From: an uncultured Actinomycetes bacterium
Lineage (GTDB): Bacteria; Actinomycetota; Thermoleophilia; UBA2241
Direction: 5' to 3'
NCBI GenBank assembly: GCA_963767005.1
Contig: CAVYCN010000019.1
Location: forward strand, 113,730-177,729
Length of the DNA: 64,000 nucleotides
Under the pieces are notes generated by a model that saw only the letters and a program-made list of their open reading frames with translations, was not told where the DNA came from and ran no database searches. This document shows positions 32,864 through 61,358 of this stretch, one piece after another. The translations under genes were made by a program, and so were the position numbers. Numbering within the stretch: the stretch's first letter is position 1; every line of letters starts with the position of its first letter.

Positions 32864-32884
32864 GGTCAGCTCCCTCCACTCAGT

Positions 32885-35912: not shown

Positions 35913-35953
35913 CGAAGGACGACTCCCGCGGCACTGGTCGCCGTCCCCACGGC

Positions 35954-39943: not shown

Positions 39944-40365
39944 GGAGCGAGCAGGCCGCGCGCCGCGAGCAGCTGGGCGGCCTCCTCGTAGGTACGGCTC
40001 ACGATCGCCGGGCAGGTCGTGAAGCGCGCCATGGGGTCGCCTTTCAGGATGTCGTCGCACTCGAGCGTGCCGTACTCGTCCTCGAACCACTCGACGAGCT
40101 GCCTGGTGAGCTCGCCGTCGACCGGCGCCGAGCTGCGCAGCGCCATGGCGAGCAGGCCACCGGTGAGCGCGCCGCAGGTGCGACCCGCGAACAGGCCGAG
40201 GCAGAGCGCACCCACGGCGTCGACCATCTGGGCGTTCTCGGCGCCGGTCTCGTCGAGCGCCATCTGCACCATGATCTGCGTGCAGCAGCGCCCGGACAGG
40301 CCGAGCTCGTTCACGCGGCGAGCCACGTCGTCGCTGGCCGGCCGACCGAGACTGCCGTCGCTCAT
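39940..40365 (-). CDS. C-GCAxxG-C-C family redox protein (DVU_1555-like)
   Basis: CCTQ, TCGALTGG, LECDDIL, TCP. Confidence 0.85.
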   Translation of the reverse strand: MSDGSLGRPASDDVARRVNELGLSGRCCTQIMVQMALDETGAENAQMVDAVGALCLGLFAGRTCGALTGGLLAMALRSSAPVDGELTRQLVEWFEDEYGTLECDDILKGDPMARFTTCPAIVSRTYEEAAQLLAARGLLAP

Positions 40366-41902: not shown

Positions 41903-41909
41903 CGGCCGC

Positions 41910-44481: not shown

Positions 44482-44647
44482 GACACATCCACTGTTACAG
44501 ACATGGCCGGCCGGCGCACCTCCCGCGGGGGCACGCCGGCCGGCCGGAGCGCCGGCCGCCTGGCGGCGGCCGGCGCGGACTTACCGTGCCGCCGATCGAC
44601 TTCGTCGTCGGCGCTCAGGCATGCGCGGCTTCGCTGCGTGCCTCGCC

Positions 44648-47389
44648 CTAGAAGGCCTGGATGTCGCGGTCCTTCATCGCCGCGAGGACCTTCTCGGGCA
44701 GGGCCGGCAGGTGCCGTACACGAGCCCCACAGGCGTCGTCGATCGCGTTGATGATCGCCACGTGCGGAGCGGTGAGCGGCGCCTCGCCGCAGCCCGATGC
44801 GCCGTAGGGGCCGAGCGGCCGCGGCGTCTCGAGATACAGCACCGTCAGGTCGTCGGTGACGTCCTTCGGGTAGGGGATGCCGCAGGCCCGCATGTTGGTG
44901 TGCTTCTTCAGGTCCTCGAAGTCCTCGGTCAGCGCGAGACCGATGCCCTGCGAGAGGCTGCCCCACATCTGGCCGTCGACGTTCAGCCGGCTGTTGATGA
45001 CGCCCACGTCGGTGCAGATCAGCAGGTGGTCGACGTAGGTCTTGCCGGTCGCCTCTTCGACCGAGACCTGCGACATGAAGACGCTGTACATCCAGTTGGG
45101 GATCGGATGGCCCTGACCGGTCTTCGGGTCGATGAGCACGCCCATCGTCTGGGTCCAGTTGCCCTCGTAGCGCAGGTCGAGGCCCTCGGCCACCATCTCG
45201 TCGTGGGTGCGGTAGGTGCCGTCGCCCTTGGCCATGGCGGCGATGAGCTTCTCGCAGGCGTCCTTGATGGCGTTGCCGACCAGGACCTGCGAACGGCTGC
45301 CGCCGGCGCCGCCGCTGTCGGGGCAGTAGGCGGTGTCGTTCAGGTCGACGCTGATCTGGTCCATGGCGAGGCCGAGCGGACGCAGCGCTTCGTGCGCCGT
45401 GCCGAGCGTGCCGCCGTCGGAGCCCTGGCCGTGGTCCTCCCAGGTGTTGTAGATGCGCACCGTGTTGTCTGCCCGCAGCTCGGCCGCGGCGTTGGCCACG
45501 TCCTCGCCGTCGCCGCCGGCGCCGAAGATGCCGAGCGAGATGCCAATGCCGCGCTTGATGCCGGCGGGCGCGGGCTCGTCTTTCCAGGCCTTGGCCTTGT
45601 CCCAGTAGGGCTTGACCATGTCGAAGAGCTTCTTGAACGAGTAGACCTCGTACTCCTGGCCCCACGAGTAGGTCGCGCCGGGCTCGGCGAGGTTCCTGTA
45701 GCGCAGCTCGAACGGGTCCATGCCCATCTTGCGGGCGAGCTCGTCGACGATGCTCTCGCCGGCGAAGAAGGCCTGCGGCGAGCCCCAGGCGCGGAAGGGG
45801 GCGCCCCAGCCATGGTTCGTGCGCACCAGGTGGCCGTCGCCACGCATGTTGGGGATGTTGTAGCCGCCGCCGCAGAGCATGCCCTTCTGCACCAGGTTGT
45901 CGCCGAACTCCATGTACGGACCGTGGTCGCACCACCAGTGGTTCTCCATGGCGAGGAACTTGCCGTTCTCGTCGGCGGCGAGCTTGCAGTGGTACCAGTG
46001 CGGCGAGCGCTTGCCGGTGTAGGCGATGCTCATCCAGTAGTCGTACTTGAGGTAGACCGGCCGACCGGTCGCCATGTGGGCGGCGCCGAGCAGGGCCTCC
46101 ATCGTCGGGCAGAACTTGTAACCGAAGGTGCCGCCCGTGTTGTTCTGCACCATGCGCAGGTTCTCGAGCTCGACACCGAGGCCCTCGTTGATCATCGCCG
46201 CGTGGAAGTTCAAGGCCACGCTCTTGGAGTGGATCGTGAGGCGGCCTTCCTCGTCGGTGTAGGCGAAGCCGCAGTCGGGCTCGAAGTACAGGTGCGGCTG
46301 GCGCTGCAGGTAGTACTTGCCTTCGACGACGTGCGCCGCCTTCTCGAAGATCGGGTCGGTCTCCTCACCCTTGATCAGGTTCTGGGTGAAGAACATGTTG
46401 GGCGTGCCGGGGTAGATGTCGATCGCGTCGTCGGCCATGGCGTCGAGCGCGTTCATGTACGCGGGCAGCTCCTCGAGCTCAACCTTGACCTTGGGCACCG
46501 CGGCCAGCGCCTGCTCGATCGTGGTAGCGCAAACGATCGCCAGGGCGTCGCCGTACTGGAAGACCTTGGTGTCGCACAGGATCGGGCGCTCCCAGCCGTC
46601 GGCCATGACGTCGTCGGGGTACATGACGAGGCCGTTGATACGGTTCTTGCCCTTGACGTCCTTGTGCGTGACGACCTTGAAGACGCCCGGCATCTTCTCG
46701 GCCTCGGACACGTCGATCGAGATGACGTTGGCGTGCGAGACCTGAGCGTGGACCACGGCGCAGTGCAGCGTCTCGGGGGGCATGCGCAGGTCGTAGTCGG
46801 CGCCGTAGAGCATGGTGCCGGTGACCTTGGCGAGGGCCGACGGCTTCGGGAAACGGGTGTTCCAGATGTGGCCGTCCTCGGGTACCTTGAACGTGAGCTC
46901 GTCCTCGCTCATCTCGCCGCGCAGCACCTTGGCGGCGTCGAGCACGGCGTCGACGAGCGGCTTGTAGCCGGTGCAGCGGCAGACGTTGGCGTGCTTCTGC
47001 CACCAGTCGCGGACCTCTTCGCGAGTCGGGTCCGGGTTCTCGTCGAGGAGCGCCTTGGACGAGACGATGAAGCCCGGCGAGCAGTAGCCGCACTGGGCGC
47101 CGCCGTGCAGGATCCAGGCGAGCTGCAGGGCGTGCAGCTTGTCGGGCGTGCCGATGCCCTCGATCGTCGTGATCTGCGACTCGGCCGGCACGCGCTTCAT
47201 GGTCGTCGTGCAGGAGCGCACGACCTTGCCGTTCAGGATCACCGAGCAGCAGCCGCACTGGCCCTGGCCGCAGGCGACCTTGGTACCCAGCAAGCCGACC
47301 TGACGACGCAGCACGTCGCTCAGCTTCTGCCTGGGATCGACGATCACGATCGTCGGGATCCCGTTGACGTTGATCAGCTTCTTGTCCAT
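44648..47389 (-). CDS. mop: Molybdopterin-dependent aldehyde oxidoreductase (Mop-type, xanthine oxidase family)
   Basis: 913 aa; CGQGQCGCC and QCGYC...CRCTGY 2Fe-2S motifs, GGTFGYK, FRAWG, DHGQG, GGSRS, GEAPL. Confidence 0.92.
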   Translation of the reverse strand: MDKKLINVNGIPTIVIVDPRQKLSDVLRRQVGLLGTKVACGQGQCGCCSVILNGKVVRSCTTTMKRVPAESQITTIEGIGTPDKLHALQLAWILHGGAQCGYCSPGFIVSSKALLDENPDPTREEVRDWWQKHANVCRCTGYKPLVDAVLDAAKVLRGEMSEDELTFKVPEDGHIWNTRFPKPSALAKVTGTMLYGADYDLRMPPETLHCAVVHAQVSHANVISIDVSEAEKMPGVFKVVTHKDVKGKNRINGLVMYPDDVMADGWERPILCDTKVFQYGDALAIVCATTIEQALAAVPKVKVELEELPAYMNALDAMADDAIDIYPGTPNMFFTQNLIKGEETDPIFEKAAHVVEGKYYLQRQPHLYFEPDCGFAYTDEEGRLTIHSKSVALNFHAAMINEGLGVELENLRMVQNNTGGTFGYKFCPTMEALLGAAHMATGRPVYLKYDYWMSIAYTGKRSPHWYHCKLAADENGKFLAMENHWWCDHGPYMEFGDNLVQKGMLCGGGYNIPNMRGDGHLVRTNHGWGAPFRAWGSPQAFFAGESIVDELARKMGMDPFELRYRNLAEPGATYSWGQEYEVYSFKKLFDMVKPYWDKAKAWKDEPAPAGIKRGIGISLGIFGAGGDGEDVANAAAELRADNTVRIYNTWEDHGQGSDGGTLGTAHEALRPLGLAMDQISVDLNDTAYCPDSGGAGGSRSQVLVGNAIKDACEKLIAAMAKGDGTYRTHDEMVAEGLDLRYEGNWTQTMGVLIDPKTGQGHPIPNWMYSVFMSQVSVEEATGKTYVDHLLICTDVGVINSRLNVDGQMWGSLSQGIGLALTEDFEDLKKHTNMRACGIPYPKDVTDDLTVLYLETPRPLGPYGASGCGEAPLTAPHVAIINAIDDACGARVRHLPALPEKVLAAMKDRDIQAF

Positions 47390-47727: not shown

Positions 47728-50448
47728 TCAGCCGACCGGCACGGCCGCCGGCTCGTCGGCGGGCGCGGGCGCCTTTTCGATGCGCACCGCGCAGACCTTG
47801 AACTCGGCCGTCTTGGTGACCGGGTCGAAGGCCGAGTTGGTGAGCTCGTTGACCGGCGATTCCTTGTAGTGGAACGTCATGAAGCAGACGCCCGGCGGCA
47901 CGATGTCGGTCACCGTCACGTGCGTCGTGATCGAGCCGCGCCGCGAGCTCACGCGGGCCACGTCGCCCTCGGCCAGGTCGAGCCGTTCGGCGTCGACCGG
48001 GTTGATCTGGGCGAGCTCGTGGGGCCGCAGGTTCTCGAGGTTGGCCGAGTGCCGGGTCATGATGTTGTAGTGGTAGAGCATGCGCCCGGTCGTGAGCAGG
48101 ATCGGGTACTCGTCGCTGCAGAGCTCGGCCGGCGCCTCGTACTCGATCCCCTGCAGCAGGCCCTTGCCACGTGTGAACCTGCCGACGTGCAGGAACCTGG
48201 TGCCCGGATGCGACTCGTCGGGGCAGGGCCACTGCAGGCCGACCTGATCGATGCGCTCGTAGGTGATGCCGGCGTACTGCGGCACCAGGGCGCGCATCTC
48301 GTCGAAGATCTCCTGGGGCGAGTCGTAGTGCACCTCGTGGCCAAGGCGGCACGAGAGGTCGGCGATGATCTGCCAGTCGGGGCGGCACTGCCCCGGCGGC
48401 TCGACCGCCTTGCGCACGCGCTGCACGCGGCGCTCGGTGTTGGTGAAGGTGCCGTCCTTCTCGGCGTAGCAGGCCGCCGGCAGGAACACGTCGGCGTACT
48501 TGGCCGTCTCGGTGATGAACAGGTTCTGGACCACGAGGAACTCGAGGCTGTCGAGAGCCTTGCGCACGTGGTTGGCGTCGGCGTCGGTGAGCGCCGGGTC
48601 CTCGCCCATGATGTACATCGCCTTGAGCTTGCCGTAGACGGCCATGTCGAGCATCTCGGGGATGCGCAGGCCCATCTTCTCGGGCAGCGGCACGCCGTAG
48701 GCGGCCGCGAACTTCGCCCTGGCGGCCTCGTCGTTCACGCTCGGGTAGCCCGGGTACGAGTTGGGCAGAGCGCCCATGTCGCAGGAGCCCTGCACGTTGT
48801 TCTGGCCGCGCAGCGGATTGACGCCGGCGTTCTCGACGCCGATGTGGCCGGTGACCATGGCGAGGTTGGCCAGGTTCATGACGTTGGCCGTGCCGGTGGT
48901 GTGCTCGGTGATGCCGAGCGTGTAGAAGATGCCGGCCTTGGGCGTGTTGGCGTACAGCTCGGCGGCCGCGCGGAGCTGCTCGACCGCCACGCCGGTGATC
49001 TCGGCGACGCGCTCGGGCGGGTAGTCCTTGACAACCTCCCAGAGGCCGTCGAACCCCTCGCAGCGCTCGGCGATGTAGGCCTTGTCGTGCCAGTCGTTGC
49101 TGATGATCAGGTAGAGCAGTCCGTTGACGAGCGCGTTGTCGGTGCCGGGCTTCAAGCGCAACCAGATGTGGGCGAGCTCGGCGAGCTCGGTGCGCCGCGG
49201 GTCGGCGACGATCAGCTTGGCGCCGTTCATGGTCGCGGCGCGCTTCATCTTGTTGCCGATGATCGGGTGCGCCTCGGGGGCGTTGGACCCGATGATGAAC
49301 AGCACGTCGTCGAACTCGATCTCGCCGATCGAGTTGGTCATCGCGCCTGAACCGAGCGTGGCGGCCAGACCGGCCACCGTCGGAGCGTGTCAGGTACGTG
49401 CGCAGTGATCGATGCTGTTGGTGTTCAGCCCCGCCCTCGTCAGGCGCTGCAGCAGGTAGTTCTCTTCGTTGGTGCAGCGCGCGGAGCTGAGCACGGCGAG
49501 GGCGTCGGGCCCGTCGCTGTGCTTGATCTCGAGCAGGCGCTTGGCGGTGTAGTCGAGCGCCTCGTCCCAGGTCGCCTCGACGAACACGCCGTCGCGCTTG
49601 ATGAGCGGCGTCGTCACGCGGTCGGGGCTCGAGATGAGGTCGGTGTGGAAGCGGCCCTTGACGCACAGCGCGCCGGCGTTGACCGGCGCCTCGTAGTTGG
49701 CCGTGACGCCCACGACCTCGCCGTGGGCGACGTTCAGGTCGAAGTTGCAGCCGACGCCGCAGAAGGGGCAGGTGGTGCGCACCTTGGTGCGGTCCCAGCT
49801 CCGCGTGCCCTTGAGCTGCTTGTTGACGAGGGCGCCGGTCGGGCAGACGTCGACGCATTGGCCGCAGAAGCGGCAGAAATCCTGGTCGAGGGCGTGATCG
49901 AACGACGAGGTCACGGTCGACTCGAAGCCGCGGCCGGCGAAGTCGACCGCGCTCGTCACCTGCACCTCGGCGCAGACCCGCACGCACTTGCCGCAGAGGA
50001 TGCACTTGTTCTGGTCGCGCTCGATCAGGTGGTTGACCGAGTCGATCTCGAGCTGCTTGGTGGCGCCCTTCACGAAGCTCGTGTGGTCGACGCCGTAGCG
50101 ATAGCAGTACTCCTGCAGCAGGCAGTCGCCGGCCTGCTCGCAGATGAGGCAGTCCTGGGGGTGGTCGGAGAGCAGCAGGTCGAGCACCGTGCGGCGCGCG
50201 TCGACCACGCCCTCGGACTCGGTGAGCACGACCATGCCCTCGGTCACCGGCGTGGCGCAGGCGGCCGCCAGGTTGGGCCGGCCCTCGATCTCGACGCTGC
50301 ACAGACGGCAGGCACCGAAGAGCGAGAGGTTCTTGTCGTAGCAGAGGGCGGGGATGTCGATGCCGACGCTCGCCGCCGCGTCGAGGATGGACGTGCCCGG
50401 CGGGACGCTGACCGCCCGACCGTCGATCACCAGGTCGACCATACTCAT
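47728..50448 (-). CDS. fdhF: Selenocysteine-containing formate dehydrogenase alpha subunit with N-terminal Fe-S domains
   Basis: ORFs 49390..50472 and 47728..49377 are in frame across TGA 49390-49392, giving DHCART-U-HAPTVAGL; CPFCGVGC, PLRGQNNVQG, EKDGTFTNTERRVQ. Confidence 0.92.
49360..49392 (-). promoter_or_regulatory. Sec UGA codon and bacterial SECIS hairpin
   Basis: UGA CACGCUCCGAC GGUGGCC-GGUCU-GGCCGCC; GGUCU apical loop at the same offset as in the E. coli fdhF SECIS. Confidence 0.85.
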
Positions 50449-50552: not shown

Positions 50553-50759
50553 TCTGTCAGAGATTGTAGCGGTTCCGCGCGGGCGCGGCCAACGGGCGCG
50601 CGACTGCGGCCCGCGGACGTCGACCACCGCACCGTCCGCATCCGGCCCGACGTGCTCGGACGCGACGTGGCCACATGTCCAAGAGAAGACGTCGCGGTTC
50701 TGCCACACCGGCGCGGACTCGCCTTGCCTGGGCTCCGCCCCGGACATAGAATCCGCCCT

Positions 50760-50860
50760 GTCTCCGAGCCCGGGAACCCTAAGGACCTGATTGGTCTAAG
50801 GACCTTGGGCCGGTAGGGTACAGCGCGAAAGCGCCGTGTCTCCCAGTGCGGAAAGGAGAT
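50760..50860 (+). ncRNA. Moco-class riboswitch, P3-less (tungsten cofactor 'Tuco'-type) variant
   Basis: UCUCCGAGC...CCUAAG-GACC/GGUC-UAAGG...GGGC-CGGU-AGGG...GCGC-GAAA-GCGC...CUCCC...GGAAAGGAGAU; P1 UCUCC/GGAGA. Confidence 0.85.
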
Positions 50861-51033
50861 GGCGCCGTCACGGCACCGTCCGCCCGACGCGGGGGTCGTG
50901 ACAGCCCGCGCTTGCGGCCGGCCTCGAAGACGGCAGGCCGGGGGAGCGCCGGCCATCCTCTTCTCTTTCTCTTCTGGGCGCAGCGGAAGAGGCCGCGTGG
51001 CCTCTTCAGGTCGAGTGAGAGGAGTCATCGAAC

Positions 51034-51957
51034 ATGAGCAACCGCAGGCAGGGCATCGTACTTCTCGTCGTCGCCGTCCTGGTGGCAGCGGGCGTCATGC
51101 TGGCAATCGGCGCCGCTCCTGGCGCGACCGGCAAAGCGAGCGCCGCCCCCACGACGTCGCCGTCGCCCTCGGCCAGCCCCGTGCTGCAGGTCGACCGCAA
51201 CGGCCACAAGGTGGCGAGCTACACCCTCGACCAGATCAAGGCCTTCACCGCCGTTGCCACCTACGCCGGCTGGCGGGGCGGCTCGGCGCACGGTCCCGAC
51301 GCCGTGACAGGCGCGGCCATTACCGACATCCTGAGCGCCGCCCTGGGCACGCCGCTGACGACGGTCGAAAGCCTCCAGATCGCCGAGGTCCCGATCCAGC
51401 CGTCGGGTTACTCGCAGACCTTCAGCGGCCCGCAGATCATCGATCCCAAGGACAACTACGGGATGGTCGACTCGACCGGCACGCCTATCCCGCCGGCGAG
51501 CCTGACAGGCACGATCGCCGCCGTGCTCGTGTATTCGGATCCCGACGGAAACGTCATGTCCGCCTCGAGCGGTCCGCTGCGCTCCTTCATGACCGATTCC
51601 GTGCTCGCCGACGGCGCATTCACGGTCGGTCAGAACAGCGTCTCGTCGGCCAACCTCCTGAACGTCATCGACGCCATCAAGATCACCTGCAAGCCCAGGC
51701 CGCGCGTCGTCACGCTCGGCAAGTCGTGCGCGTTCCGCGGCGTCGTGACCAACGCCATCGCGACCAACAAGTGGGTGGCCGTGCGCATGGTCAAGAACGG
51801 CAAGTTCGTCCTCAAGGGGACCGGCAAGGTCTCGGCGACCGGCGCCTACCGCATCGTGATCAAGCCGGGGAGGGTCGGCAAGCTCCACTTCGTCGTCACG
51901 TACCGGGCCGGCGCGATGTTCTTCAGCAAGGCGGTGACGATCACCGTCCATAAGTAG
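51034..51957 (+). CDS. Secreted protein with one molybdopterin-oxidoreductase-like (SUOX-fold) domain and a basic Ig-like C-terminal domain
   Basis: Signal peptide; YTLDQIKA, TGAAITDIL, GYSQTFS, VLVY, GPLRS; paralog of 53791 and 55016. Confidence 0.65.
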   Translation: MSNRRQGIVLLVVAVLVAAGVMLAIGAAPGATGKASAAPTTSPSPSASPVLQVDRNGHKVASYTLDQIKAFTAVATYAGWRGGSAHGPDAVTGAAITDILSAALGTPLTTVESLQIAEVPIQPSGYSQTFSGPQIIDPKDNYGMVDSTGTPIPPASLTGTIAAVLVYSDPDGNVMSASSGPLRSFMTDSVLADGAFTVGQNSVSSANLLNVIDAIKITCKPRPRVVTLGKSCAFRGVVTNAIATNKWVAVRMVKNGKFVLKGTGKVSATGAYRIVIKPGRVGKLHFVVTYRAGAMFFSKAVTITVHK

Positions 51958-52112
51958 CGATCGGACGCGGCGCCCTCGGGGTCGAACGACCCGCGGGCGG
52001 CCGCGCAGGCGGCGGACCGGTGGCGTCGGCTCCGCGCGGAGCCGACGCCACCGGTCGTCCCCGCGTCGCGGCAGCGGTCGCGCGCGGCAGGTGAAGGAGG
52101 CCTGACACGGTC

Positions 52113-53705
52113 ATGAGCGCATCCATCGCGCGTCACAGGGCGGCTCGGCGGGGCCGCGGCGCCGCTGTCTGTGCGTCAGCGGCGCTCGCCGCGGCGTGGC
52201 TCCTGCTCGGCGTCGTGTCCGTCGCCGGCGCGGCGCCGGCGACCCCGGCCGCTGGGACGGGCGCGACGGCCCAGGCCTCGCCGGCGACGACGGACGCGCA
52301 AGCCGCGTCCTCCACACCGTACGGCTGGGTCGTGCAGCTGCGCGGCGTGCTCAGCAGAGATCTCACCTCCGGTCAATTCGCCGCGCTCGCGGCCAAGTAC
52401 TCGATCTGGAACGACGGCACCGACACCTGGACCGGCGTACCGCTGTGGCGTCTGGTCGCGCTGGTCGACGACAAGAACGCGGCCACGTTCGACGCGAGCC
52501 TGGCCAAGAAGGGCTACTCGATCCAGGTCGTCGGCCTTGGCGGCGTGGTGACGCTGACGAGCGCCGACGGGCTGTGGGTCGGCAAGAACGGCGTGCTGGT
52601 CGCCGACCTCGAGGATTCGCTGCCCCTGGCATTCGGCACGCTGGCCGGCGCGACGTGGACGCCGACGTGGCCGGCCGAGCTCGTCGGCGCGGGCTTGACC
52701 GCCGATCGGCAGCTCGGCGGTGTCGTGCGGGTCATCGTATACAAGCCGGGCGTCAAACCGCCGGCAAGCCCCACGGTCCAGCCGAGCTGGGTCGTGCAGG
52801 TGCGCGGTGGCCTGAAGAGCGTCGACGACTCGGCCTCGCAGTTCCGCGCGCTCGCCAAGGCTCACCCGGTGAGCTGGACCGACACGGCCACCTCAGCCAA
52901 GTACACGGGCACGCCACTGTGGCGCCTGGTCGCCCAGGCCGACGGCGGCAGCCCGACCGCGCTGAACCTCGACCTCCTCGGCCTTGGCAACCTCGCCGCC
53001 CCCGGCGTGGGGTACAGCGTCGACGTGGTCGGCATGGGTGCGTCGGGCGCCACCACGACCACGGTCACGGCCTCGCAGTTCGCCGCCTCCAACAGCGTGG
53101 TCCTGGCCGACCGCCAGGGCTCTCCGCTCGCCCAGCTCACGCCGCTCGCCGGCACCGTCACAGGGTTGGACCCGGACTACGCCTGGACGCCGACCTGGCC
53201 ACTGCGACTCTGCGGCACCGGCGTGACCACCGGCCAGGGCGGCGTGCTGCGCGTCGTGATCCACCGGCCACCGGTGCCGTCGTACGTGGTGCCGCTCACG
53301 CTGGTCGGGAGGCGCACGGTGAAGATCCCGTATCTCGCCTTCCCGACGTCGGTCACCTGGGACGGCCGCAAAGCCGGCAACATCAACCCCCAGCTCCGGG
53401 CGCTGTACCGCGGCCAGGCGCTGGACAAGCTGATCGGCCTGGTCGACGACAAGGACCCCAAGACGTTCAACGCGACGCTCGCGCGCAAGGGCTACAAGAT
53501 CGAGTTCATCGCAAGCGACGGCTACAAGTGGACGATCAGCAGCAAGACGGTCGTCGGCCGGACGCACTGGATCGTCGCGTCGCTCAAAGACGGCGCGACC
53601 ATGGCGTCGGGCGAGGGCCCGTACCGCTATGTCGGATCGTTCATCAAGCCGTTCTACGGCAAACCGTCGGTGTACAAGCTCATCAAGATCAAGCTGATCT
53701 TCTAG
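52113..53705 (+). CDS. Secreted protein with three tandem SUOX-fold-like repeats
   Basis: WTGVPLWRLVALVDD...GYSIQV...WPAELVG; YTGTPLWRLV...GYSVDV...WPLRLCG; YRGQALDKLIGLVDD...GYKIEFIASDGY...GPYRYVG. Confidence 0.7.
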   Translation: MSASIARHRAARRGRGAAVCASAALAAAWLLLGVVSVAGAAPATPAAGTGATAQASPATTDAQAASSTPYGWVVQLRGVLSRDLTSGQFAALAAKYSIWNDGTDTWTGVPLWRLVALVDDKNAATFDASLAKKGYSIQVVGLGGVVTLTSADGLWVGKNGVLVADLEDSLPLAFGTLAGATWTPTWPAELVGAGLTADRQLGGVVRVIVYKPGVKPPASPTVQPSWVVQVRGGLKSVDDSASQFRALAKAHPVSWTDTATSAKYTGTPLWRLVAQADGGSPTALNLDLLGLGNLAAPGVGYSVDVVGMGASGATTTTVTASQFAASNSVVLADRQGSPLAQLTPLAGTVTGLDPDYAWTPTWPLRLCGTGVTTGQGGVLRVVIHRPPVPSYVVPLTLVGRRTVKIPYLAFPTSVTWDGRKAGNINPQLRALYRGQALDKLIGLVDDKDPKTFNATLARKGYKIEFIASDGYKWTISSKTVVGRTHWIVASLKDGATMASGEGPYRYVGSFIKPFYGKPSVYKLIKIKLIF

Positions 53706-53790
53706 GAGACCGAAGGTCCGGCGACGAACTCGTCGGGCGGGGCCCGCGGAGGGCAACGGCCGCGAGGCCATGCACGAAGAGAGGGGAGCC

Positions 53791-54933
53791 ATGAAGAGGC
53801 GCAGAGACCTGATGACCCTGGTGGTCGTCGCCGCGATCCTCGCCGCCAGCGTCGTGCTGGCCGGCAGCGTCGCACGCGGGGCGACAGGCGGCGGGACCGC
53901 TCTCGGCGTCTCGCCCTCACCGTGGCCGTCGCCGTCGCCGAGCGTCGTGCTGCAGGTCGGCCACGACGGCACGTTCGTGAAGGAGTACACGCTGGCCGAC
54001 CTCGAGGCGCTGCCGGCGTCGGACCCGGGCACCGCCGTGTTCAACGGCTACGCCGGCTTCATGAACACCGGGAACATCGTCTACGGCCCCGATGCCGTGT
54101 CGGGAATCACCCTGTCCGACGTCCTGCAGGATGCGCTGGGGGCGCCGCTCGGCGCGAACCAGTCGGTGCAGTTCATCGGGTCCGACGGCTACGTGCAGAC
54201 GTACTCCGACGCCCAGCTGACCAACGTCGACCAGATGACCCAGCTGTACAACGCGACCACCAAGGCACCGGTGTCGTCGACGAGCTACACGGGACCGTTC
54301 GCCACGGTCCTCCTGTACGCCGACAACACGCCTGGCGGCCAGGTGTTCAACCCTGATCCGCCGCCCGCCGGCGACGGGCCCCTGCGCCTGGCGGTCGCCG
54401 ACGCCACGAACGAGAACGTCGTCATGACCGGCAGCGACAGCGTCAAGTGGCTCGTCAAGCTGAACGTGCTCGACTCCGTGCCCAAGGACTGGAGCCTCAA
54501 GCTGACCGGGCTCAAGATCAAGGGCGTGCGGCAGACGCGCACGATCAGGCGCAACGACTACTCGAGCTGCCTAAGCTGCCACGAGTACTCGCACAAGGGC
54601 CAGTACACGACCCTCGGCCACAAGTGGAGCGGCGTGCCGCTCTACATGCTGATCGGCGAGGTCGACGGCGGCAACACGATGACCTTCAACGCCGCGCTCG
54701 CGAAGAAGGGCTACCGCATCGAGGTCATCACCTCGAAGGGCCAGAAGCGCTACGTGAGCTCGCGCCTGATCGTCTACAAGGGCGAGGGTCGGCGCAAGGT
54801 CGTGCTCGCCTGGACCCGCGACGGCCTGACGCTCCCCAGCAGCTCGTTCCCGCTGCGCCTGGTCGGTCCGACCCTGCTGTCGTCGCAGGAGATCGGCCGC
54901 ATCACGCGGGTCGTGCTGCTGCCCGCGAAGTAA
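53791..54933 (+). CDS. Secreted protein with two SUOX-fold-like domains and a CxxCH motif
   Basis: YTLADLEALP, SDGY, DGPLRL, SVKWL; CLSCH; WSGVPLY, GYRIEV, FPLRLVGP. Confidence 0.7.
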   Translation: MKRRRDLMTLVVVAAILAASVVLAGSVARGATGGGTALGVSPSPWPSPSPSVVLQVGHDGTFVKEYTLADLEALPASDPGTAVFNGYAGFMNTGNIVYGPDAVSGITLSDVLQDALGAPLGANQSVQFIGSDGYVQTYSDAQLTNVDQMTQLYNATTKAPVSSTSYTGPFATVLLYADNTPGGQVFNPDPPPAGDGPLRLAVADATNENVVMTGSDSVKWLVKLNVLDSVPKDWSLKLTGLKIKGVRQTRTIRRNDYSSCLSCHEYSHKGQYTTLGHKWSGVPLYMLIGEVDGGNTMTFNAALAKKGYRIEVITSKGQKRYVSSRLIVYKGEGRRKVVLAWTRDGLTLPSSSFPLRLVGPTLLSSQEIGRITRVVLLPAK

Positions 54934-54944
54934 CAAGAAGACGG

Positions 54945-54981
54945 GGGTGGGGGCGGGCTCTGAAAGAGCCCGCCCCCACCC
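54945..54981. other. Perfect 17-bp intergenic hairpin
   Basis: gggtgggggcgggctct-gaa-agagcccgcccccaccc between paralogs 3 and 4. Confidence 0.6.
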
Positions 54982-55015
54982 GCCACAGGAGCGCGAGGGC
55001 GCCGAAAGGACGGCC

Positions 55016-56062
55016 ATGAGCCATCGCAGCATCGTCACGAGGCCGGCCGGTCTGATCGTCCTCGTGCTCCTCCTCCCCGCGCTCTTACTGGGCGCGGCGC
55101 TGGCCATCGGCGGCCTGGGCGGCTGCGGTGCGGCGGGATCGACCGCCACCTCGCCGAGCTCGGGCGGTCCCGTCGTGGTCACCGTCGCCGGCGCCAAGGG
55201 CAGCAAGTCGTTCACGCTGGCGCAACTCGAGGCGCTGCCCTCCTACACCGGTTACGCCGGCATCAAGGACAGCGTCGGGGTGATCACGCCGCCCACGCAG
55301 TACACGGGCGTGCCGCTCTCCGAGCTCACCGCGCAGGTCGGTGGCGTCGACCCGTCGTACGGCGTCACGGTGCTCGCCAAGGACGGCTACGGCATGACTT
55401 TCTCGGCCGGGCAGGCGGCCGGCGGTGACTTCACGACCTACGACCCGGTGACCGGCGCCGAGCGCTCGCCGGCCTACAAGCTCACGCTCGTGCTCGCCTA
55501 CCGGCACCAGGGCAAGCCGCTCGACCCCTCCGAGGACGGCCCGTTGCATCTGGTCTTCGCCGAGCCCAAGGCCGACGTTGTGGTCGACGGCCACTGGTCG
55601 GTGCGCTGGGTCGACCGGCTCGAGGTCAAGAAGTCGCTCGGCCAGTGGCAGGTGGCGGTGCAGGGCTACACGAGCTCGACGCTCACCCAGGCGTCGTACG
55701 TTTCGTGCGCCTCGCCCGGCTGTCACGGCAGCGAGTACTCAGACACCTCGGGGCAGCGCTGGACCGGCATCCCGCTGTGGCTCGTGGTCGGATCGGTCGA
55801 CGACGGCCGCACCCACGGTGCCGGGGCCTTCGACGTGAAGCTGGCCCGGAAGGGCTACCGGATCGAGCTGATCGCCGCGAACGGCGTCACGACCTTCTTG
55901 AGCTCGCGCGACCTGCTCAGGCACAAGAACTGGATCCTGGCCGGACAGATGGACGGTGAGACGCTGACACCCGACTACTTCCCGCTGCGCCTGGTCGGAC
56001 CGGGCCTCACCGACGACCAGTCGATCGGGCGCATCACCGAGGTGCGACTGCGCTCCGGCTGA
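55016..56062 (+). CDS. Lipoprotein with two SUOX-fold-like domains and a CxxxxCH motif
   Basis: LGGC lipobox; FTLAQLEALP, YTGVPL, AKDGY, LAY...GKPL...DGPLHL, SVRWV; CASPGCH; WTGIPLW, FPLRLVGP. Confidence 0.72.
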   Translation: MSHRSIVTRPAGLIVLVLLLPALLLGAALAIGGLGGCGAAGSTATSPSSGGPVVVTVAGAKGSKSFTLAQLEALPSYTGYAGIKDSVGVITPPTQYTGVPLSELTAQVGGVDPSYGVTVLAKDGYGMTFSAGQAAGGDFTTYDPVTGAERSPAYKLTLVLAYRHQGKPLDPSEDGPLHLVFAEPKADVVVDGHWSVRWVDRLEVKKSLGQWQVAVQGYTSSTLTQASYVSCASPGCHGSEYSDTSGQRWTGIPLWLVVGSVDDGRTHGAGAFDVKLARKGYRIELIAANGVTTFLSSRDLLRHKNWILAGQMDGETLTPDYFPLRLVGPGLTDDQSIGRITEVRLRSG

Positions 56063-56070
56063 GGGTGATC

Positions 56071-57210
56071 ATGGCAGGTTGCAGGCGGGTGGGAGCGACG
56101 ACAGCGGTGCGGCGCGTTTGCGCGATCGCTGCGCGCGCGCTGCTCGCCGCGGCGCTCCTCGCCGCAGCGCTGCTCGGCGTGGCGACGCTCGCCGGCTGCA
56201 CGCACGGCACACACGACAAGACGCTCTCGCTGGTCGACGCCGACAGCCTCATCATCCCGTTCGCGCACCTGGCGCAGGCCTATCATCGGGCCCATCCGGG
56301 CGTGCAGGTCGAGACCGAGACGCACGGCAGCATCCAGACCATCCGTCAGGTCACCGACCTGGGTCGCAGCTTCGACGTGCTCACCTCGGCCGACCCGTAC
56401 CTGGTCACGCTCATGATGGAGGACGCCCGGCATCCGACCGCCGGCTGGTACGCCGTCTTTGCCACGAACCGCATGGTCCTCGCCTGGTCGCCGCACAGCC
56501 GCTTCGCGGCGCTGTTCCGTTCGGGGGACTGGGTCAAGGCGATCACCACGCCGGGTGTGCAGCTCGGCCTGGCCGACCCACGCTTCGACGCGACGGGCTA
56601 CCGGGCCCTCATGGTGCTCGCGCTGGCGCAGCGCTATTACAACGACGACCACCTGTTCGCCGACGTCACGGTCGGCCGGTTCTCGCCGCCGATCACGCTG
56701 ACGAGCGAGCGCGACGGCCGCGAGGTGATCGACGTGCCCGAACTCCTCGAGGCCGCGTCGGGCACGGGACTCGTGCTGCGCGACACCGCCATCGAGCTCG
56801 AGACGCTGCTCGAGGCGGGCGACATCGACTGTACGTTCGAATACGAGAGCGTCGCTCGTCAGCACCACATGCCGTTCGTGTCACTGCCGGCCGCCGTCGA
56901 CCTGGGCTCGCAACGCTACGCCACCGAATATGCGAAGGTCGCGGTCGCGACGCCGTTCCAGCGCTTCGCGAGCGTCAAGCCGCTGTTCGTGGGCGCACCG
57001 ATCGCCTACGCGGTGACGATCCCGAGCACGGCCCGGAACACCGCCGAGTCGGAGCGGTTCATCGCCTTCCTGCTCGGCCCCCAGGGCCGCGCCATCCTCG
57101 CGGCCGACGACCAGCCGAGCGTGACGCCGGCGCTCGTCGACCACTACGCGGCGCTGCCGGCGTCGCTGCGGGCGCTCTGCCGGCCGCTGCAGCCTGGGCA
57201 GGCGCCGTGA
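56071..57210 (+). CDS. wtpA: WtpA-like tungstate/molybdate-binding lipoprotein
   Basis: LAGC lipobox, HGSIQTIRQVTDL, SAD, FATNRMVLA, DATGYR, FEYESVA.QH, PIAYAVTIP. Confidence 0.8.
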   Translation: MAGCRRVGATTAVRRVCAIAARALLAAALLAAALLGVATLAGCTHGTHDKTLSLVDADSLIIPFAHLAQAYHRAHPGVQVETETHGSIQTIRQVTDLGRSFDVLTSADPYLVTLMMEDARHPTAGWYAVFATNRMVLAWSPHSRFAALFRSGDWVKAITTPGVQLGLADPRFDATGYRALMVLALAQRYYNDDHLFADVTVGRFSPPITLTSERDGREVIDVPELLEAASGTGLVLRDTAIELETLLEAGDIDCTFEYESVARQHHMPFVSLPAAVDLGSQRYATEYAKVAVATPFQRFASVKPLFVGAPIAYAVTIPSTARNTAESERFIAFLLGPQGRAILAADDQPSVTPALVDHYAALPASLRALCRPLQPGQAP

Positions 57211-58072
57211 GCGCACGGGTCGAACGGTCGAGGAGCGCGAGGGGCGGGGCGGCGGCGAGGCCGCGCGGCCTCGCCGCCGCCCCGCCGCCTTTTCGGTCCT
57301 TTCCGGGGCGCTCGGCTTCGTCCTGCTGCTGTTCGTGGCGGCGCCGCTCGTCGCCCTGGTCACCGGAACGAGCCTGCACGAGCTGCTGAGCACGCTCGGC
57401 GAGTCCGACATCCGCGCCGCTCTGGCGACTTCGGTCGAGGCCGCTGTCCTGGCTACGGTCCTCGCCGCGATCTTCGGCGTGCCGCTCGCCTACCTGCTCG
57501 CGCGCCGCAGCTTCGCCGGGAAGCGCCTGATCGAGGGCCTGATCGACCTGCCCATCGTCTTTCCGCACACCGCCGCCGGCATCGCGTTGCTGCTCGTGTT
57601 CGGTCGCAGCGGCGCCTTCGGCCGCGGCTTCGCGCATCTCGGCCTGGCCTTCACCGACACCCTGGCCGGCGTCGTCGTGGCGATGCTCTTCGTGAGCCTG
57701 CCGTTCCTGGTCGACACGGCGCGCGAGTCGTTCGCGCTGGTCGACCCCGGCTACGAACGGGTGGCCCGCACCCTGGGCGCCTCGCCGGGCGTCGCCTTCG
57801 TTCGGATCGCGCTGCCACTCGCCTGGCGCGGCGTCCTGGCCGGCGCGTTGCTCATGTGGGCGCGCGGCATGAGCGAGTTCGGCGCCATCGTGATCCTCGC
57901 CTACAACCCCAAGACGATGTCGGTGCTCGTCTATGAGCGGTTCGAGGGCCTCGGTCTGGGCGCCGCCAAGCCGGCCGCGCTGCTCATCGTGCTGCTCGCG
58001 CTGGTCGTGTTCGTCGTGGTGCGCTCGATCGGCGGGCGGGAGCGATCCGACGGACGAGGGCGGTCCGCATGA
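57207..58072 (+). CDS. wtpB: WtpB-like ABC permease (N-terminal frameshift)
   Basis: IDLPIVFPHTAAGIALL, FVSLPF, WARGMSEFGAIVILAYNP. Confidence 0.85.
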
Positions 58073-59304
58073 TCGGCGCCCGCGGGCTTCAGGTGCGCGC
58101 CGGCTCGTTCACGCTCGGGCCGATCGACCTCGCCGTGGCCGACGGCGAGTATCTCGCCGTGGTCGGTCCGAGTGGGGCCGGCAAGAGCGTGCTGCTCGAG
58201 ACCCTCGCCGGCCTGCGGCCGGCCGCGGGCGGCCACGTCGTGGCCGGCGACGGCGAAGCCGCGAACGGCCCGCCGAGCGGCCTGCGGTCGGGAGCTGGCG
58301 GAGGCGACGGCGCCGACGTGACCGGACTGCCGCCCGAGCGCCGCGGCATCGGTCTGGTCGGGCAGCAGCCGCTGCTGTTCCCCCACCTGACGGTCGCCGC
58401 CAACATCGCCTTCGGTCCGGGCGTCGCGGCCGGCGGGGCGGCGCGCTGGTTCGGGACAGGGCACAGACGGAGCGGAGCCGCCGGGAGACCGGCCGGCGCC
58501 GGCGGCGCCGGCGGCAGCGACGGCGACGTCAGCAGCAGCGGCGACGTCGTGCGCGAGGTCGCCGAGGCGCTCGGAGTGGTCTCGCTGCTGCGTCGCCGGC
58601 CCGGGTCGCTGTCGGGCGGCGAGCGCCAGCGCGTCGCGCTGGCCCGTGCGCTCGCCGCCCGTCCGCGCGCCTTGCTCCTCGACGAGCCGCTCAGCGCCCT
58701 CGACCCCGAGGCGCGCGAGGAGCTGCAGGCCGAGCTGCGCCGCGTGCACGAACGCTTCGCCATGACGATCGTGCACGTCACGCACAGCCTCGACGAGGCG
58801 TTGGCGGTCGCGGGTCGCTGCGCCGTGCTGGTCGCCGGGCGGGTCGCGCAGGACGGGCCGATCGACGCGGTGATCGCACGGCCGGCGAGCGCCGCCGTGG
58901 CGCGCCTGACGGGAGCCCGCAACGTGGTGTCCGCCACCGCGCGCCCGGCCACCGACGGCGCCGGCTGCGAGGTGACGCTCACCGACGGCCTCACGCTGCG
59001 TTCGGCCGCCGTCGCGCAGGGGCCTGTCGTCGTCGTCGTGCGCGCCGACGCCATCCGGTTGAGCCGGCCCGCGGCGACCGCGGGCGAGGCCAGCGCGGGC
59101 CGTGAACGACCAGCGTGCGATCTCGTCGTGGCACACGTCCTCGAGGTGCGGGACGTGGCGAGCGGTCTGCTGGTCTCGGTCGACGCCGGTGGGCTGACGG
59201 TGCTGGTGCCGAGGGCCTACGCCGACGGCGCGCGACCGAGTGTGGGTGACGACGTCGAGCTCGCGGTCCCGCACGGCGCCGTCCATGTCATTCCTGAACC
59301 GTGA
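58069..59304 (+). CDS. wtpC: WtpC-like ABC ATPase
   Basis: GPSGAGKSVLLE, LSGGERQR, LLDEPLSALD, HVTH. Confidence 0.82.
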   Translation: MIGARGLQVRAGSFTLGPIDLAVADGEYLAVVGPSGAGKSVLLETLAGLRPAAGGHVVAGDGEAANGPPSGLRSGAGGGDGADVTGLPPERRGIGLVGQQPLLFPHLTVAANIAFGPGVAAGGAARWFGTGHRRSGAAGRPAGAGGAGGSDGDVSSSGDVVREVAEALGVVSLLRRRPGSLSGGERQRVALARALAARPRALLLDEPLSALDPEAREELQAELRRVHERFAMTIVHVTHSLDEALAVAGRCAVLVAGRVAQDGPIDAVIARPASAAVARLTGARNVVSATARPATDGAGCEVTLTDGLTLRSAAVAQGPVVVVVRADAIRLSRPAATAGEASAGRERPACDLVVAHVLEVRDVASGLLVSVDAGGLTVLVPRAYADGARPSVGDDVELAVPHGAVHVIPEP

Positions 59305-59329
59305 CGGACTGCCGCGGGGATCGCCGAAG

Positions 59330-61358
59330 ATGGGCAGCATGACGAGACGGCGACATGGGTGGCGCGGCCCTCGCAGGGGCCCCGCGCGCGAGGTGCGGCC
59401 GGCCCGGCCCCGGGCCGGCGTGGCGGTCGCACTCGTCGGCCTCGTGGCGGTCCTGGCCTGCGCCCTGCCGGCCGCGGCCGCGGCCGGCACGCTCGAGGCC
59501 GGCACGCCGGGCCATCCCTTCAGCAAGGTCATCACGAACCTGAGCGACAAGAACGCCGACGGGCTTGCGATCGTCGGCACGTCGAACCAGAGTCTCACGC
59601 TCAAGCGGTGCGTCCTGTGGACGGCGGGTGACGGGTCGCCGGCGAGTGGGACCTGGGGGTCGGCCCAGTGGCTGTCGAACGGCTCGCGGCTCGTTTGCGG
59701 CGGCGGCGCCGTGCAGGAGGTCGGCGTGAACGGTACGACCACCTGGACCTACCCCACCGGCGGCGCGGGCGTCGATCCGACCTGGGCGTGGGAGTTCGGG
59801 CAGGGTGGCCACACGTACGTGCTCATCTGCGACGAGCTCTCGAGAAGCGTGTTCGCCGTGGATCGGGGCAGCGACGCGGTCGTCTGGACCTGCTCCGACA
59901 TCGCCGATCCCGTCTGCGCGCGGTACGTGGGCACGTCGGGCACCGTGCTGATCGCCGACGACGATCCGGCCGCGCCCGAGGTCATCGAGGTGTCCTTCGA
60001 TCCGGGTTCGAGCCCGCAGACGATCTGGAGCTACGGCGGGACGAGCGGCACCGGCTTCGACCAGGTCATGGGTCCGACCGACGTGTATCGCGAGAGCGAC
60101 GGCTCGACCCTGATCGCCGACGCCGCAGCCGACAGAGTGATCCGGGTGGGGCCGGGCAGCCAGGACGTGTCCTGGCAGTACCCGGCGGCAGGGTCGGAGA
60201 GTGGCACCCTGAACGACCCCATGGGCGTGGGGGTCGAGCAGGACGACGTGATGATCGCCGACACCGGTCACGGGCGGGTGATCGAGGTCGACCCGGGTAG
60301 CGACGCCGTTGTCTGGAGCTCGGCCGACCTCGGGTCATCGGCTCCGGCGCTTTCCGTGCCCCGCGTCGCCGAACGAGTGACGGGCTCCGCGCCCTCCGGG
60401 TTGCAGGGCGATAGCACCACCGTCGACGGCGGGCTGCTGGTCTGCGACCAGGGTGGGCAGGATCTCGCGCTGATCGGTAACACCACGGGCGCGCAAGTCG
60501 ACACGAAGTCGTTCAGGCTGGCGAGCGGGGGCAAGCAGGCTCACCTCCTGAGACTCAGGCTGGACGCCTCCGTGCCGACGGCCACGCACACGGAGCTGTA
60601 CTACACGCCGTCCGACGGTGTCCAGCGGGGCCCGTTCGGTCGCGGCGTCATCTCGGTCAGGAGCGTGGTGACGACGAGGGTCAGCTTCGTCCTCGCTCTG
60701 AACAGCGACGACCTCTGGCTCACGCCCACGGTCAAGGACATCGTCCTGACCTATACGGCAGGCGAGACCAAGGCAAAGACGTTGGGCAACGGCGGCGCGA
60801 CCGGCGGCAACGGCACGGCATCCGGCGCGGGCACGGGCACAGGCAGCGGCGTCGGCGGCTCGGGGAACGGTTCGGGGGTCGGCGCCGGTCAGGGCACGAG
60901 CGCCGACCTGGGCGGCAGCGGCAGCGCCGGCAGCTCGGGCTCGACCGCGCAGTCCGGCGGTGCGAACGTGGTGGTGCCGGCCGGCGCCCAGGTCGCGACG
61001 ACCGGCGGCGCGGCCACCGCAGGCACGATCACCGGCGTACCGGTGAACGTCGGGAACCTCAGCGGCGGGGCGCTCGGCGGTGGGGGGCAGCCCGCCGCCC
61101 CGCGTCTCGGACCTCGCCGCCGACCTGCGCGTGGCCGGCGCGGCGGTGTTCGTCGGCTGCCTGCTGCTCTGCCCGTCGTTCGTGGTGCGTCGCCGTCTGC
61201 GCCGCCTCGCCAGCCACGAGCCGACGGACGTCGTGGACGCGTGGATCGTGGAGGCGGCGCCCCCGGGGCGGTCGCCGAAGGGCGGCCCGTGGGGCGGTCG
61301 AGGCCGCCGCGCGTCGTGGCACCGACCGAACGCTACGGAGCGCCCGGCTCGTCGGTGA
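59330..61358 (+). CDS. Secreted NHL/beta-propeller-like surface protein with Gly-rich stalk and C-terminal membrane anchor (frameshift ~61085)
   Basis: Signal peptide; LICDE, LIADD, LIADAAADRVI, IADTGHGRVIEV, WQY; Gly-rich linker; AAVFVGCLLLCPSFVVRRRLRRL in ORF 61080..61358. Confidence 0.7.

What the first reader, a model, noticed from the sequence alone, without database searches (positions are those of the whole stretch)
50760..61358. Riboswitch-controlled operon of four secreted molybdopterin-fold paralogs, WtpABC and a beta-propeller: candidate extracellular tungsten/pterin-cofactor capture system
Seen: one co-directional run of a Moco-class riboswitch, four exported paralogs (three with signal peptides, one lipoprotein), wtpABC and a membrane-anchored propeller. 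The four proteins hold about eight copies of one domain (TLxxLEALP...[WY]TGVPL...DGY...LAY...GPLRL...SVKW). Known: this pattern resembles the sulfite-oxidase/MsrP molybdopterin-binding domain, whose enzymes ligate Mo with a Cys in the segment before WxGV and are usually Tat-exported with cofactor. Seen: six copies have no Cys in that segment, and the other two carry a C..CH motif there. Inference: these are mostly non-catalytic surface proteins that bind or scavenge tungstate, polytungstate or metal-pterin and feed the ABC importer, under cofactor feedback. The window also encodes likely consumers (Sec-FDH, AOR, Mop). I know of no characterised system with this layout.
Basis: partly seen in the sequence, partly recalled or inferred. 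Interest (0 to 1): 0.9.

Follow-up and report, generated by a model that had tools for sequence, protein, structure and literature searches.

The report
Surface tungsten-capture proteins feeding WtpABC
An anaerobic bacterium's tungstate-import operon starts with four exported proteins built from eight sulfite-oxidase-like domains that lack the metal-binding cysteine; relatives keep them beside, or fused to, tungstate importers, so they likely catch tungsten outside the cell (probably still bound to its pterin cofactor) and pass it to the importer, a step not described in the papers searched.

Summary
Observation confirmed. RF01055 riboswitch at 50750-50874 (58.5 bits) lacks P3, the tungsten-cofactor type. 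It precedes exported paralogs A-D (eight domains, two subtypes), then wtpABC. AlphaFold plus VIA-align puts subtype d1 in the SUOX/PruR fold (Z 11-16; unrelated ≤5.2). d1 keeps the full cofactor hairpin, with Ser/Thr at the Mo-Cys position (35/36 homologs). d2 carries a co-conserved Cys/His/His triad (205/296); a haem-c motif occurs in only 33/296. Linkage is strong: wtpA lies downstream in 71/80 Actinomycetota/Chloroflexota loci (7 of the other 9 truncated), related domains are fused to TupA (18 loci), WtpA (1) and ECF S-components (119/120 listed homologs). These are neither MsrP/SUOX enzymes nor PruR by defining features. Best reading: extracytoplasmic accessory proteins of tungsten (sometimes molybdenum) uptake, about 0.8; ligand W-pterin 0.4, free oxyanion 0.3. 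Binding, hand-over and co-transcription are untested. The propeller is a lineage-limited add-on whose anchor is frameshifted here. Seven literature searches found no description. This scan noted similar loci before in three other genomes.

The parts
50724..50752 (+). sigma-70-like promoter match (9 of 12) directly before the aptamer; weak
   Evidence: 2 found in the region against 0.3 +/- 0.6 in shuffles
50750..50874 (+). Moco/Wco riboswitch aptamer, P3-less (Tuco/Wco type)
   Evidence: RF01055, 58.5 bits; P3 rule from PMC2408646 passages
50875..51033 (+). leader, likely expression platform: GC hairpin (50936-50954) with a pyrimidine tract, and a second hairpin before the ribosome-binding site
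   Evidence: seen; the terminator scan did not call it; mechanism inferred
51034..51957 (+). A: exported, one degenerate d1 domain plus a C-terminal Ig-like domain
   Evidence: (Big_6 E 0.024, weak)
52113..53705 (+). B: exported, three d2 domains without the Cys/His/His triad
53770..54933 (+). C: exported, d1 (Thr at the Mo-Cys position) plus d2 with CxxCH
   Evidence: (PF00174 E 1.7e-6)
54945..54981 (.). 17-bp GC hairpin between C and D (terminator-like on the minus strand); may stabilise or cut the transcript
   Evidence: role inferred
55016..56062 (+). D: lipoprotein, d1 (Ser86 at the Mo-Cys position) plus d2 (Cys236, His237, His267); the conserved core, 2 bp before wtpA
56065..57210 (+). 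WtpA tungstate-binding lipoprotein
   Evidence: TIGR03730 244.3 bits, cut-off 242.75; ModA models only 32-33 bits
57207..58072 (+). WtpB permease; frame change near the 5' end, main ORF 57335-58072
   Evidence: (NF040839 best hit, 263 bits, under its cut-off of 340)
58069..59304 (+). WtpC ATPase
   Evidence: NF040840 best hit, 233 bits, under its cut-off of 440
59330..61358 (+). exported NHL-repeat (propeller-like) protein with Gly/Ser linker; the C-terminal membrane anchor (61080-61358) is in another frame here
   Evidence: ScyF NHL E 8e-6; NHL in one of two orthologs scanned; fold not modelled

Best explanation
A-D are exported, cysteine-less sulfite-oxidase-fold proteins encoded in front of wtpABC behind a P3-less cofactor riboswitch, and they likely act as a cell-surface capture layer that binds tungsten, most probably as tungsten-pterin cofactor shed by other cells, and would release it as tungstate to WtpA. 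Steps: (1) low internal cofactor would switch the operon on (riboswitch shown, response inferred from PMC2408646). (2) A-C are exported and D and WtpA are lipid-anchored (sequence features). (3) d1 is predicted to hold the metal-pterin in the ancestral pocket: full hairpin, Ser/Thr instead of Cys, D-G-Y, Arg and Lys kept, so it would bind without redox turnover (inferred). (4) The d2 Cys/His/His site would hold a metal or the freed oxyanion (inferred, weakest step). (5) WtpA takes tungstate and WtpBC imports it (family knowledge). In lineages with an ECF module the pterin itself would be imported; this genome has none and makes its own pterin. The broader claim, accessory proteins of W/Mo uptake whatever the ligand, is about 0.8.
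For: Fold: d1 matches PruR 7kp2 Z 15.8, SoxC 15.4, SorA 15.2, YedY 11.2; best unrelated 5.2 (model pLDDT 88.7). d2 is homologous to d1 (97.5%) and to the genome's own Cys-bearing SUOX proteins (93-97%). Pocket: Ser/Thr at the Mo-Cys position in 35/36 d1, D123 and Y125 36/36, R178 34/36, K197 34/36. Human sulfite oxidase C207S still shows the pyranopterin dithiolene Raman bands (PMC9370002 passage), so a Cys-to-Ser pocket can hold cofactor. PruR shows that Cys-less exported SUOX folds bind pterins (PMC11194511). Context: wtpA co-oriented downstream in 71/80 loci, with 7 of the other 9 ending within 1.4 kb; gap under 300 bp in 60/70. Fusions to TupA in 18 loci and WtpA in 1. A second, more distant subfamily has wtpA in 17/33 loci of at least 10 kb, tup only in 2, ECF in 2. 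ECF S-component fusions: 332 homologs, 119/120 listed carry the domain; ECF S components mostly carry vitamins (family knowledge). Riboswitch in 7/8 relative loci, all 8 alignments shown lack P3. All 11 genomes with D have AOR.
Against: No binding data. This genome has moaA, moaC, mogA, moeA, mobAB and moeB, and no ECF S of this type was found, so it has no need and no obvious route for intact cofactor; its co-regulated importer takes oxyanions. Fusions to TupA/WtpA fit free tungstate equally well. d1 lacks the N-terminal SUOX segment (structural alignments start at chain residues 66-147 of the enzymes), and D itself has His178 and Arg197 instead of Arg/Lys; A has lost the hairpin Ser and the Lys. 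Free Moco/Wco is unstable (PMC2408646 passage). Not essential: 27 of 38 AOR-bearing genomes lack D, and a second WtpA clade sits without these genes in 3 of 4 genomes where it was viewed (G004, G010, G015 without; G011 has them nearby). Not only tungsten: L161 and L029 have P3-containing riboswitches, and 0/6 Anaerolineae loci had RF01055. The loci surveyed are related to each other and were the best 80 of 286 and 73 of 383 hits.
Confidence: 0.4

Rival explanations
1. A-D bind free tungsten oxyanions (tungstate, polytungstate or thiotungstate) and concentrate or buffer them at the surface for WtpA/TupA; the pterin pocket has been re-used for an oxyanion.
For: Fusions to TupA (18) and WtpA (1); hydroxyl-rich K-[S/N/T]-[S/T]-x-G hairpin plus Arg and Lys; tandem arrays of up to about ten domains on PKD, SLH or dockerin scaffolds; this genome makes its own pterin and has no ECF; MoSto-like gene in 7 loci (name recalled).
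Against: Invariant D-G-Y, whose Asn/Tyr equivalents bind the pterin in PruR, is not needed for an oxyanion; ECF S fusions point to an organic ligand; WtpA already binds tungstate very tightly (recalled); no SUOX fold is known to bind free oxyanion (recalled).
Confidence: 0.3
2. D and C are surface enzymes that convert unavailable tungsten (thiotungstate, polytungstate, W-dithiolene) into tungstate, using the d2 Cys/His/His metal site or a Ser-ligated W-pterin in d1.
For: Cys, His and second His are kept or lost together (205 all three, 34 none of 296); a third His (H193) is in 28/36 d1; Ser ligates Mo in DMSO reductases (PMC9370002 passage); a purple acid phosphatase neighbours 31 of 73 loci.
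Against: No Tat motif for cofactor export; B lacks the triad altogether; no electron-transfer partner in the operon; residue proximity could not be measured because model coordinates are not provided.
Confidence: 0.14
3. C and D are c-type cytochromes (CxxCH, CX4CH) serving an extracellular redox step.
For: Motifs present and exported; CASPGCH invariant in 51 close homologs; genome has ccmE and ccmF; ccm genes follow the moa genes near the operon in some relatives.
Against: Only 8 CxxCH and 25 CX4CH among 296 d2 domains, 181 have one Cys; the first Cys is often Gly; the family occurs in Methanocalculus, an order without cytochromes (recalled). Haem attachment in C/D alone is not excluded.
Confidence: 0.06
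4. They are PruR-like pterin sensors that signal across the membrane.
For: PruR is the top structural match.
Against: No DcpA/DTB-type receptor beside them in the window or among recurrent neighbours; neighbours are importers; PW motif and Trp160 absent.
Confidence: 0.04

Closest known systems
PruR (Agrobacterium tumefaciens; PDB 7kos, 7kou, 7kom, 7kp2, 7rkb; PMC11194511)
   Same: Exported SUOX fold without the Mo-ligand Cys; Asn102/Tyr104 correspond to invariant Asp123/Tyr125; best structural match, Z 15.8.
   Different: PruR is a single ~170-aa domain with a shortened hairpin, PW motif and Trp160, in an operon with DcpA-type receptors in Proteobacteria. Here: tandem domains, full hairpin with Ser/Thr, Lys/Arg at the Trp160 position (by register), partners are W/Mo importers, control by a cofactor riboswitch, hosts are anaerobic Actinomycetota, Chloroflexota, Bacillota and methanogens.
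Sulfite oxidase family enzymes (MsrP/YedY 1xdq, SorA 2blf, SoxC 2xts, sulfite oxidase 1sox)
   Same: Fold (Z 10-15), hairpin length, GPLR Arg and VKW Lys in d1.
   Different: No Mo-ligand Cys, no Tat motif, no N-terminal segment or dimerisation domain, no MsrQ or cytochrome partner; d1 resembles the Cys-to-Ser variants. The genome has four separate Cys-bearing members.
WtpABC and TupABC tungstate importers
   Same: wtpA passes TIGR03730; wtpB and wtpC are best hits.
   Different: Described as three-protein systems (recalled; no accessory protein found in searches); here preceded by, or fused to, extra surface domains.
Surface capture relays such as Isd/NEAT haem uptake or BtuG-type cobamide capture (recalled analogy)
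   Same: Several anchored paralogs of one ligand-binding domain in front of an importer, under ligand feedback.
   Different: Unrelated fold and ligand; analogy only, not tested.

Membership tests
SUOX family enzyme (MsrP/SorA/SO) | SUOX Moco-binding fold | tested here: met
   d1: Z 10-15. d2: profile homology only; its model (pLDDT 96) could not be fold-searched
SUOX family enzyme (MsrP/SorA/SO) | Cys ligand at the hairpin tip | tested here: not met
   0 of 8 window domains; Ser/Thr in 35/36 d1 homologs
SUOX family enzyme (MsrP/SorA/SO) | Tat export with cofactor | tested here: inconclusive
   no match to a simple twin-arginine pattern in A-D, although B and C have Arg pairs; no TatP/SignalP run
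SUOX family enzyme (MsrP/SorA/SO) | bound Mo/W-MPT and oxo-transfer activity | not testable with these tools
   needs purified protein
PruR pterin-binding proteins | exported SUOX fold lacking the Cys | tested here: met
PruR pterin-binding proteins | shortened hairpin with PW (Trp70) | tested here: not met
   d1 hairpin has the MsrP length without gaps; no PW in d1 or d2
PruR pterin-binding proteins | pocket Asn102, Tyr104, Trp160 | tested here: inconclusive
   Asp123 and Tyr125 align to Asn102/Tyr104; Trp160 maps to Lys/Arg197 only by counting from the C-terminus, not by a printed alignment
PruR pterin-binding proteins | operon with DcpA/DTB receptor | tested here: not met
   neighbours are wtp, tup and ECF genes
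PruR pterin-binding proteins | binds reduced monapterin | not testable with these tools
   binding assay needed
WtpABC | WtpA above TIGR03730 cut-off, with permease and ATPase | tested here: met
   244.3 against 242.75 bits; wtpB and wtpC best hits but under their cut-offs
WtpABC | tungstate preferred over molybdate | not testable with these tools
   inferred from family and P3-less riboswitch
Tuco/Wco riboswitch | RF01055 above gathering score and no P3 | tested here: met
   rule from PMC2408646 and PMC11725836 passages
Tuco/Wco riboswitch | responds to tungsten cofactor | not testable with these tools
   even in PMC2408646 the assignment is by gene context
c-type cytochrome | exported CxxCH and a maturation system | tested here: met
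   C has CxxCH, D has CX4CH; ccmE and ccmF present
c-type cytochrome | two-Cys motif conserved across the family | tested here: not met
   33 of 296 d2 domains

The most novel reading that the evidence does not exclude
Anaerobic bacteria and archaea salvage the pterin cofactor of tungsten/molybdenum enzymes from their surroundings with a widespread family of surface SUOX-fold receptors: one branch strips the metal for Wtp/Tup importers (this operon), another hands the pterin or whole cofactor to a dedicated ECF importer. This would make Wco/Moco a shared good like cobamides.
Probability: 0.3. Interest if true: 0.9.

Novelty: new variant of a known kind. Interest (0 to 1): 0.68.

Why it matters
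Tungsten is scarce and often complexed in anoxic habitats, and known uptake stops at three-protein ABC importers. This family has 1,424 representatives at 50% identity, is auto-annotated as 'molybdopterin-dependent oxidoreductase' or 'YedYZ catalytic subunit' although it lacks the metal ligand, and occurs in cultured anaerobes (Longilinea arvoryzae, Dehalogenimonas sp. THU2, Methanocalculus chunghsingensis). It offers a direct test of whether prokaryotes scavenge or exchange Moco/Wco, and small soluble domains to assay.

Tried and rejected
ESMFold2 of D with WtpA gave no answer (0.26, mark 0.32); neither support nor evidence against. Single-sequence PDB search of D found only 7kom at E 0.15. 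The Atlas search added only PF00174-type clusters. Foldseek 'pdb' and the fold search of the d2 model never ran, so d2's fold rests on profiles. The weak NF041762 'GEGP diheme protein' hit (22 bits against 300) was not pursued. Haem c as the family function was rejected. Active MsrP-type enzyme and PruR membership were rejected on defining features. The propeller as a core part was rejected: present in 5 close relatives and 1 of 80 loci. Cofactor auxotrophy of this genome was rejected; moaE was not found, but a MOSC protein sits with moaAC, a known alternative (recalled). The frame changes in wtpB and both propeller genes are read as likely assembly errors because orthologs are intact; reads were not checked. 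Literature searches found no paper on this family in W/Mo uptake; one search returned nothing; Workun 2008 was not held. No supplements were opened: the PruR supplementary alignments and the similarity network in PMC13259868 Fig. 4, which includes archaeal SUOX-like proteins, may touch this family.


Full report
Observation. The window is G000:C19:113730-177729. A relative in the same family is titled Actinomycetes and its near kin Thermoleophilia, so the host is most likely an anaerobic actinobacterium of that class (inference). Rfam gives one hit in 64 kb: RF01055 at 50750-50874, 58.5 bits, with the P3 stem missing. PMC2408646 (passages) sorts P3-less RNAs with tungsten metabolism, and PMC11725836 (passages) uses the same rule for tupABC and WOR operons of Eubacterium limosum. 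Downstream on the same strand lie A, B, C, D, wtpA, wtpB, wtpC and a propeller-like gene. Gaps are 155, 64, 82 and 2 bp, then overlaps; GC hairpins lie between A-B and C-D, so one transcript is likely but not shown. WtpA passes TIGR03730. wtpB and the propeller each change frame once, while orthologs are intact.

Domains. Pfam PF00174 hits C and D only. HMMs iterated from homologs give eight domains of two subtypes: A d1; B d2 x3; C d1+d2; D d1+d2. AlphaFold2 models D at pLDDT 88.7. Against 48,161 chains the ten matches with Z of 8 or more are all SUOX-family or PruR: 7kp2 15.8 (rmsd 2.6, 132 aligned), SoxC 15.4, SorA 15.2, 7rkb 14.9, YedY 11.2; the next is 5.2. These alignments cover d1. d2 folds with high confidence alone (pLDDT 96) and is homologous to d1 (97.5%), to the genome's own Cys-bearing SUOX proteins (93-97%) and weakly to solved sulfite oxidases (E 0.002); its structural search did not run.

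The pocket. In the genome's MsrP-like protein the Mo-ligand Cys lies ten residues before the W-x-G aromatic; d1 aligns to it without a gap in the hairpin. At that place 35 of 36 diverse core d1 domains have Ser (24) or Thr (11); Asp123 and Tyr125 are invariant, Arg178 is in 34 and Lys197 in 34. In the wider mixed set of 217 d1-like domains the figure is 59% Ser/Thr, because other subtypes are included. PruR binds pterin with Asn102, Tyr104 and Trp160 and has a shortened hairpin with Trp70 (PMC11194511, section 12 and passages). Asn102/Tyr104 align with Asp123/Tyr125; Trp160 falls on Lys197 by register. d1 is therefore closer to a Cys-to-Ser sulfite oxidase than to PruR, and the C207S variant keeps the dithiolene bands of the cofactor (PMC9370002 passage). 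That the Arg and Lys touch the cofactor is recalled. In the window itself C has Thr, Arg and Lys; D has Ser but His178/Arg197; A is degenerate. d2 has a short hairpin, lacks the Lys and has an insert with a second His. Of 296 d2 domains 205 have Cys, His and the second His, 34 have none; CxxCH occurs in 8 and CX4CH in 25 (related sequences, so the association is overstated). A metal site is more likely than haem c for the family, though C and D could be haem-attached since Ccm is present.

Neighbourhoods. Among 61 genomes (own plus 60 relatives), 11 have a D ortholog and all 11 have wtpA next to it. Ten of the 11 genomes with WtpA over the cut-off have D; G015 and the second WtpA clade of G004 and G010 do not (the G005 contig is too short to tell). 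AOR is in 38 of 61, so the module is optional for tungsten users. The riboswitch precedes the genes in 7 of 8 loci scanned, P3-less in the 8 alignments shown. In GTDB genomes 286 stretches encode relatives and the best 80 were kept: Thermoleophilia, Anaerolineae and other Chloroflexota, one Eisenbacteria, one Deltaproteobacteria. wtpA follows in 71; 7 of the remaining 9 end within 1,344 bp; 2 lack it. In 60 of 70 measured loci the gap is under 300 bp; in 9 only further family genes intervene. A short third subtype (d3) is fused to TupA in 18 loci, in either order, and d1-d2 to WtpA in L124. A metagenome scan with a distant subfamily (383 hits in about half the collection, 73 loci kept) gave 33 loci of 10 kb or more: 17 with wtpA, 2 more with tup, 2 with ECF; a purple acid phosphatase neighbours 31 of 73. 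L172 encodes an ECF S component fused to the domain; 332 homologs exist, named from Syntrophomonadaceae, Desulfotomaculaceae, Thermovorax and others, and 119 of the 120 listed carry the domain. Single-domain copies sit with ECF, an NTPase and sometimes MobAB in four relatives. Against strict tungsten specificity, L161 and L029 have P3-containing RNAs; six Anaerolineae loci have none, and a GntR-PBP regulator recurs in 32 of the 80 loci. The whole family has 1,424 representatives, many with tandem domains and PKD, SLH or dockerin anchors, including Methanocalculus and Dehalogenimonas proteins.

This genome. It has moaA, moaC, MOSC, mogA, mobAB, moeA and moeB; moaE, tupA and an ECF S of this type were not found (100% complete by markers). 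It has Sec-FDH, AORs, a Mop-type enzyme and two modABC sets. So here the product of capture must reach the cell as oxyanion through WtpABC.

Mechanism. Shown: layout, fold of d1, loss of Cys, conserved pocket residues, linkage and fusions. Inferred: riboswitch response, ligand, role of d2, hand-over. I commit to capture of tungsten-pterin with release of tungstate to WtpA (0.4) because the pterin-side residues are invariant and a sister branch is fused to a vitamin-type importer. Free oxyanion capture is close behind (0.3). An enzyme that mobilises complexed tungsten (0.14), cytochrome (0.06) and sensor (0.04) follow. Accessory role in W/Mo uptake in any form is about 0.8.

Known or new. Fold, importer and riboswitch are each known. 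A-D fail defining features of both SUOX enzymes and PruR. Searches of open-access full text found no account of such proteins in W/Mo uptake; a 2026 pterin review (PMC13259868, passages) treats PruR-type proteins only as signalling partners and calls pterin transport unknown. Subscription papers and supplements were not seen. Earlier AI notes of this scan describe like loci in three other genomes; they agree but are not independent support, and I had the ECF fusion before reading the ECF notes. Verdict: real, widespread, mis-annotated accessory module of a known importer type; interest 0.68, higher if cofactor salvage is shown.

Noticed in passing
window ~25300-27600 (-): Second NHL-propeller paralog with Gly/Ser linker and membrane anchor, broken by several frame changes, divergent from a modABC set (27702-30857); so each propeller sits beside a W/Mo importer.
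   Followed up: partly
window 27702-33709: Two convergent modABC sets; the first ModA carries a C-terminal TIG domain.
   Followed up: partly
window 33855-47389 (-): Mop-type aldehyde oxidoreductase with a maturation-like cluster: MocA-HD, XdhC, AMP-binding, radical SAM, C_GCAxxG_C_C, methyltransferase, DUF364, FAD/CCG protein.
   Followed up: no
window 47728-50442 (-): Formate dehydrogenase alpha subunit with in-frame TGA at the metal-ligand position (selenocysteine), divergent from the riboswitch.
   Followed up: partly
L172:14024-15118: ECF S component (PF09819) fused to an outward SUOX-fold domain, behind P3-less riboswitches; 332 homologs in anaerobic Bacillota. Candidate pterin-cofactor importer.
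   Followed up: partly
L120:8460-9191: Protein with a DDTD motif and no Pfam hit beside tungsten importers in 19 of 80 loci.
   Followed up: no
L094:8566-9660: GntR-PBP regulator divergent from the operon in 32 of 80 loci; possible tungstate-sensing regulator replacing the riboswitch.
   Followed up: no
L107:18121-18999: AA_kinase-family gene resembling Mo-storage protein subunits (resemblance recalled) in 7 Anaerolineae loci.
   Followed up: no
L161:13574-15283: Exported purple acid phosphatase among the SUOX-fold genes in 31 of 73 metagenome loci; could remove the phosphate of molybdopterin.
   Followed up: no
G000 C6:241169-244512 and C15:4472-7837: The same molybdopterin oxidoreductase operon and riboswitch appear on two contigs, probably an assembly duplication.
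   Followed up: no
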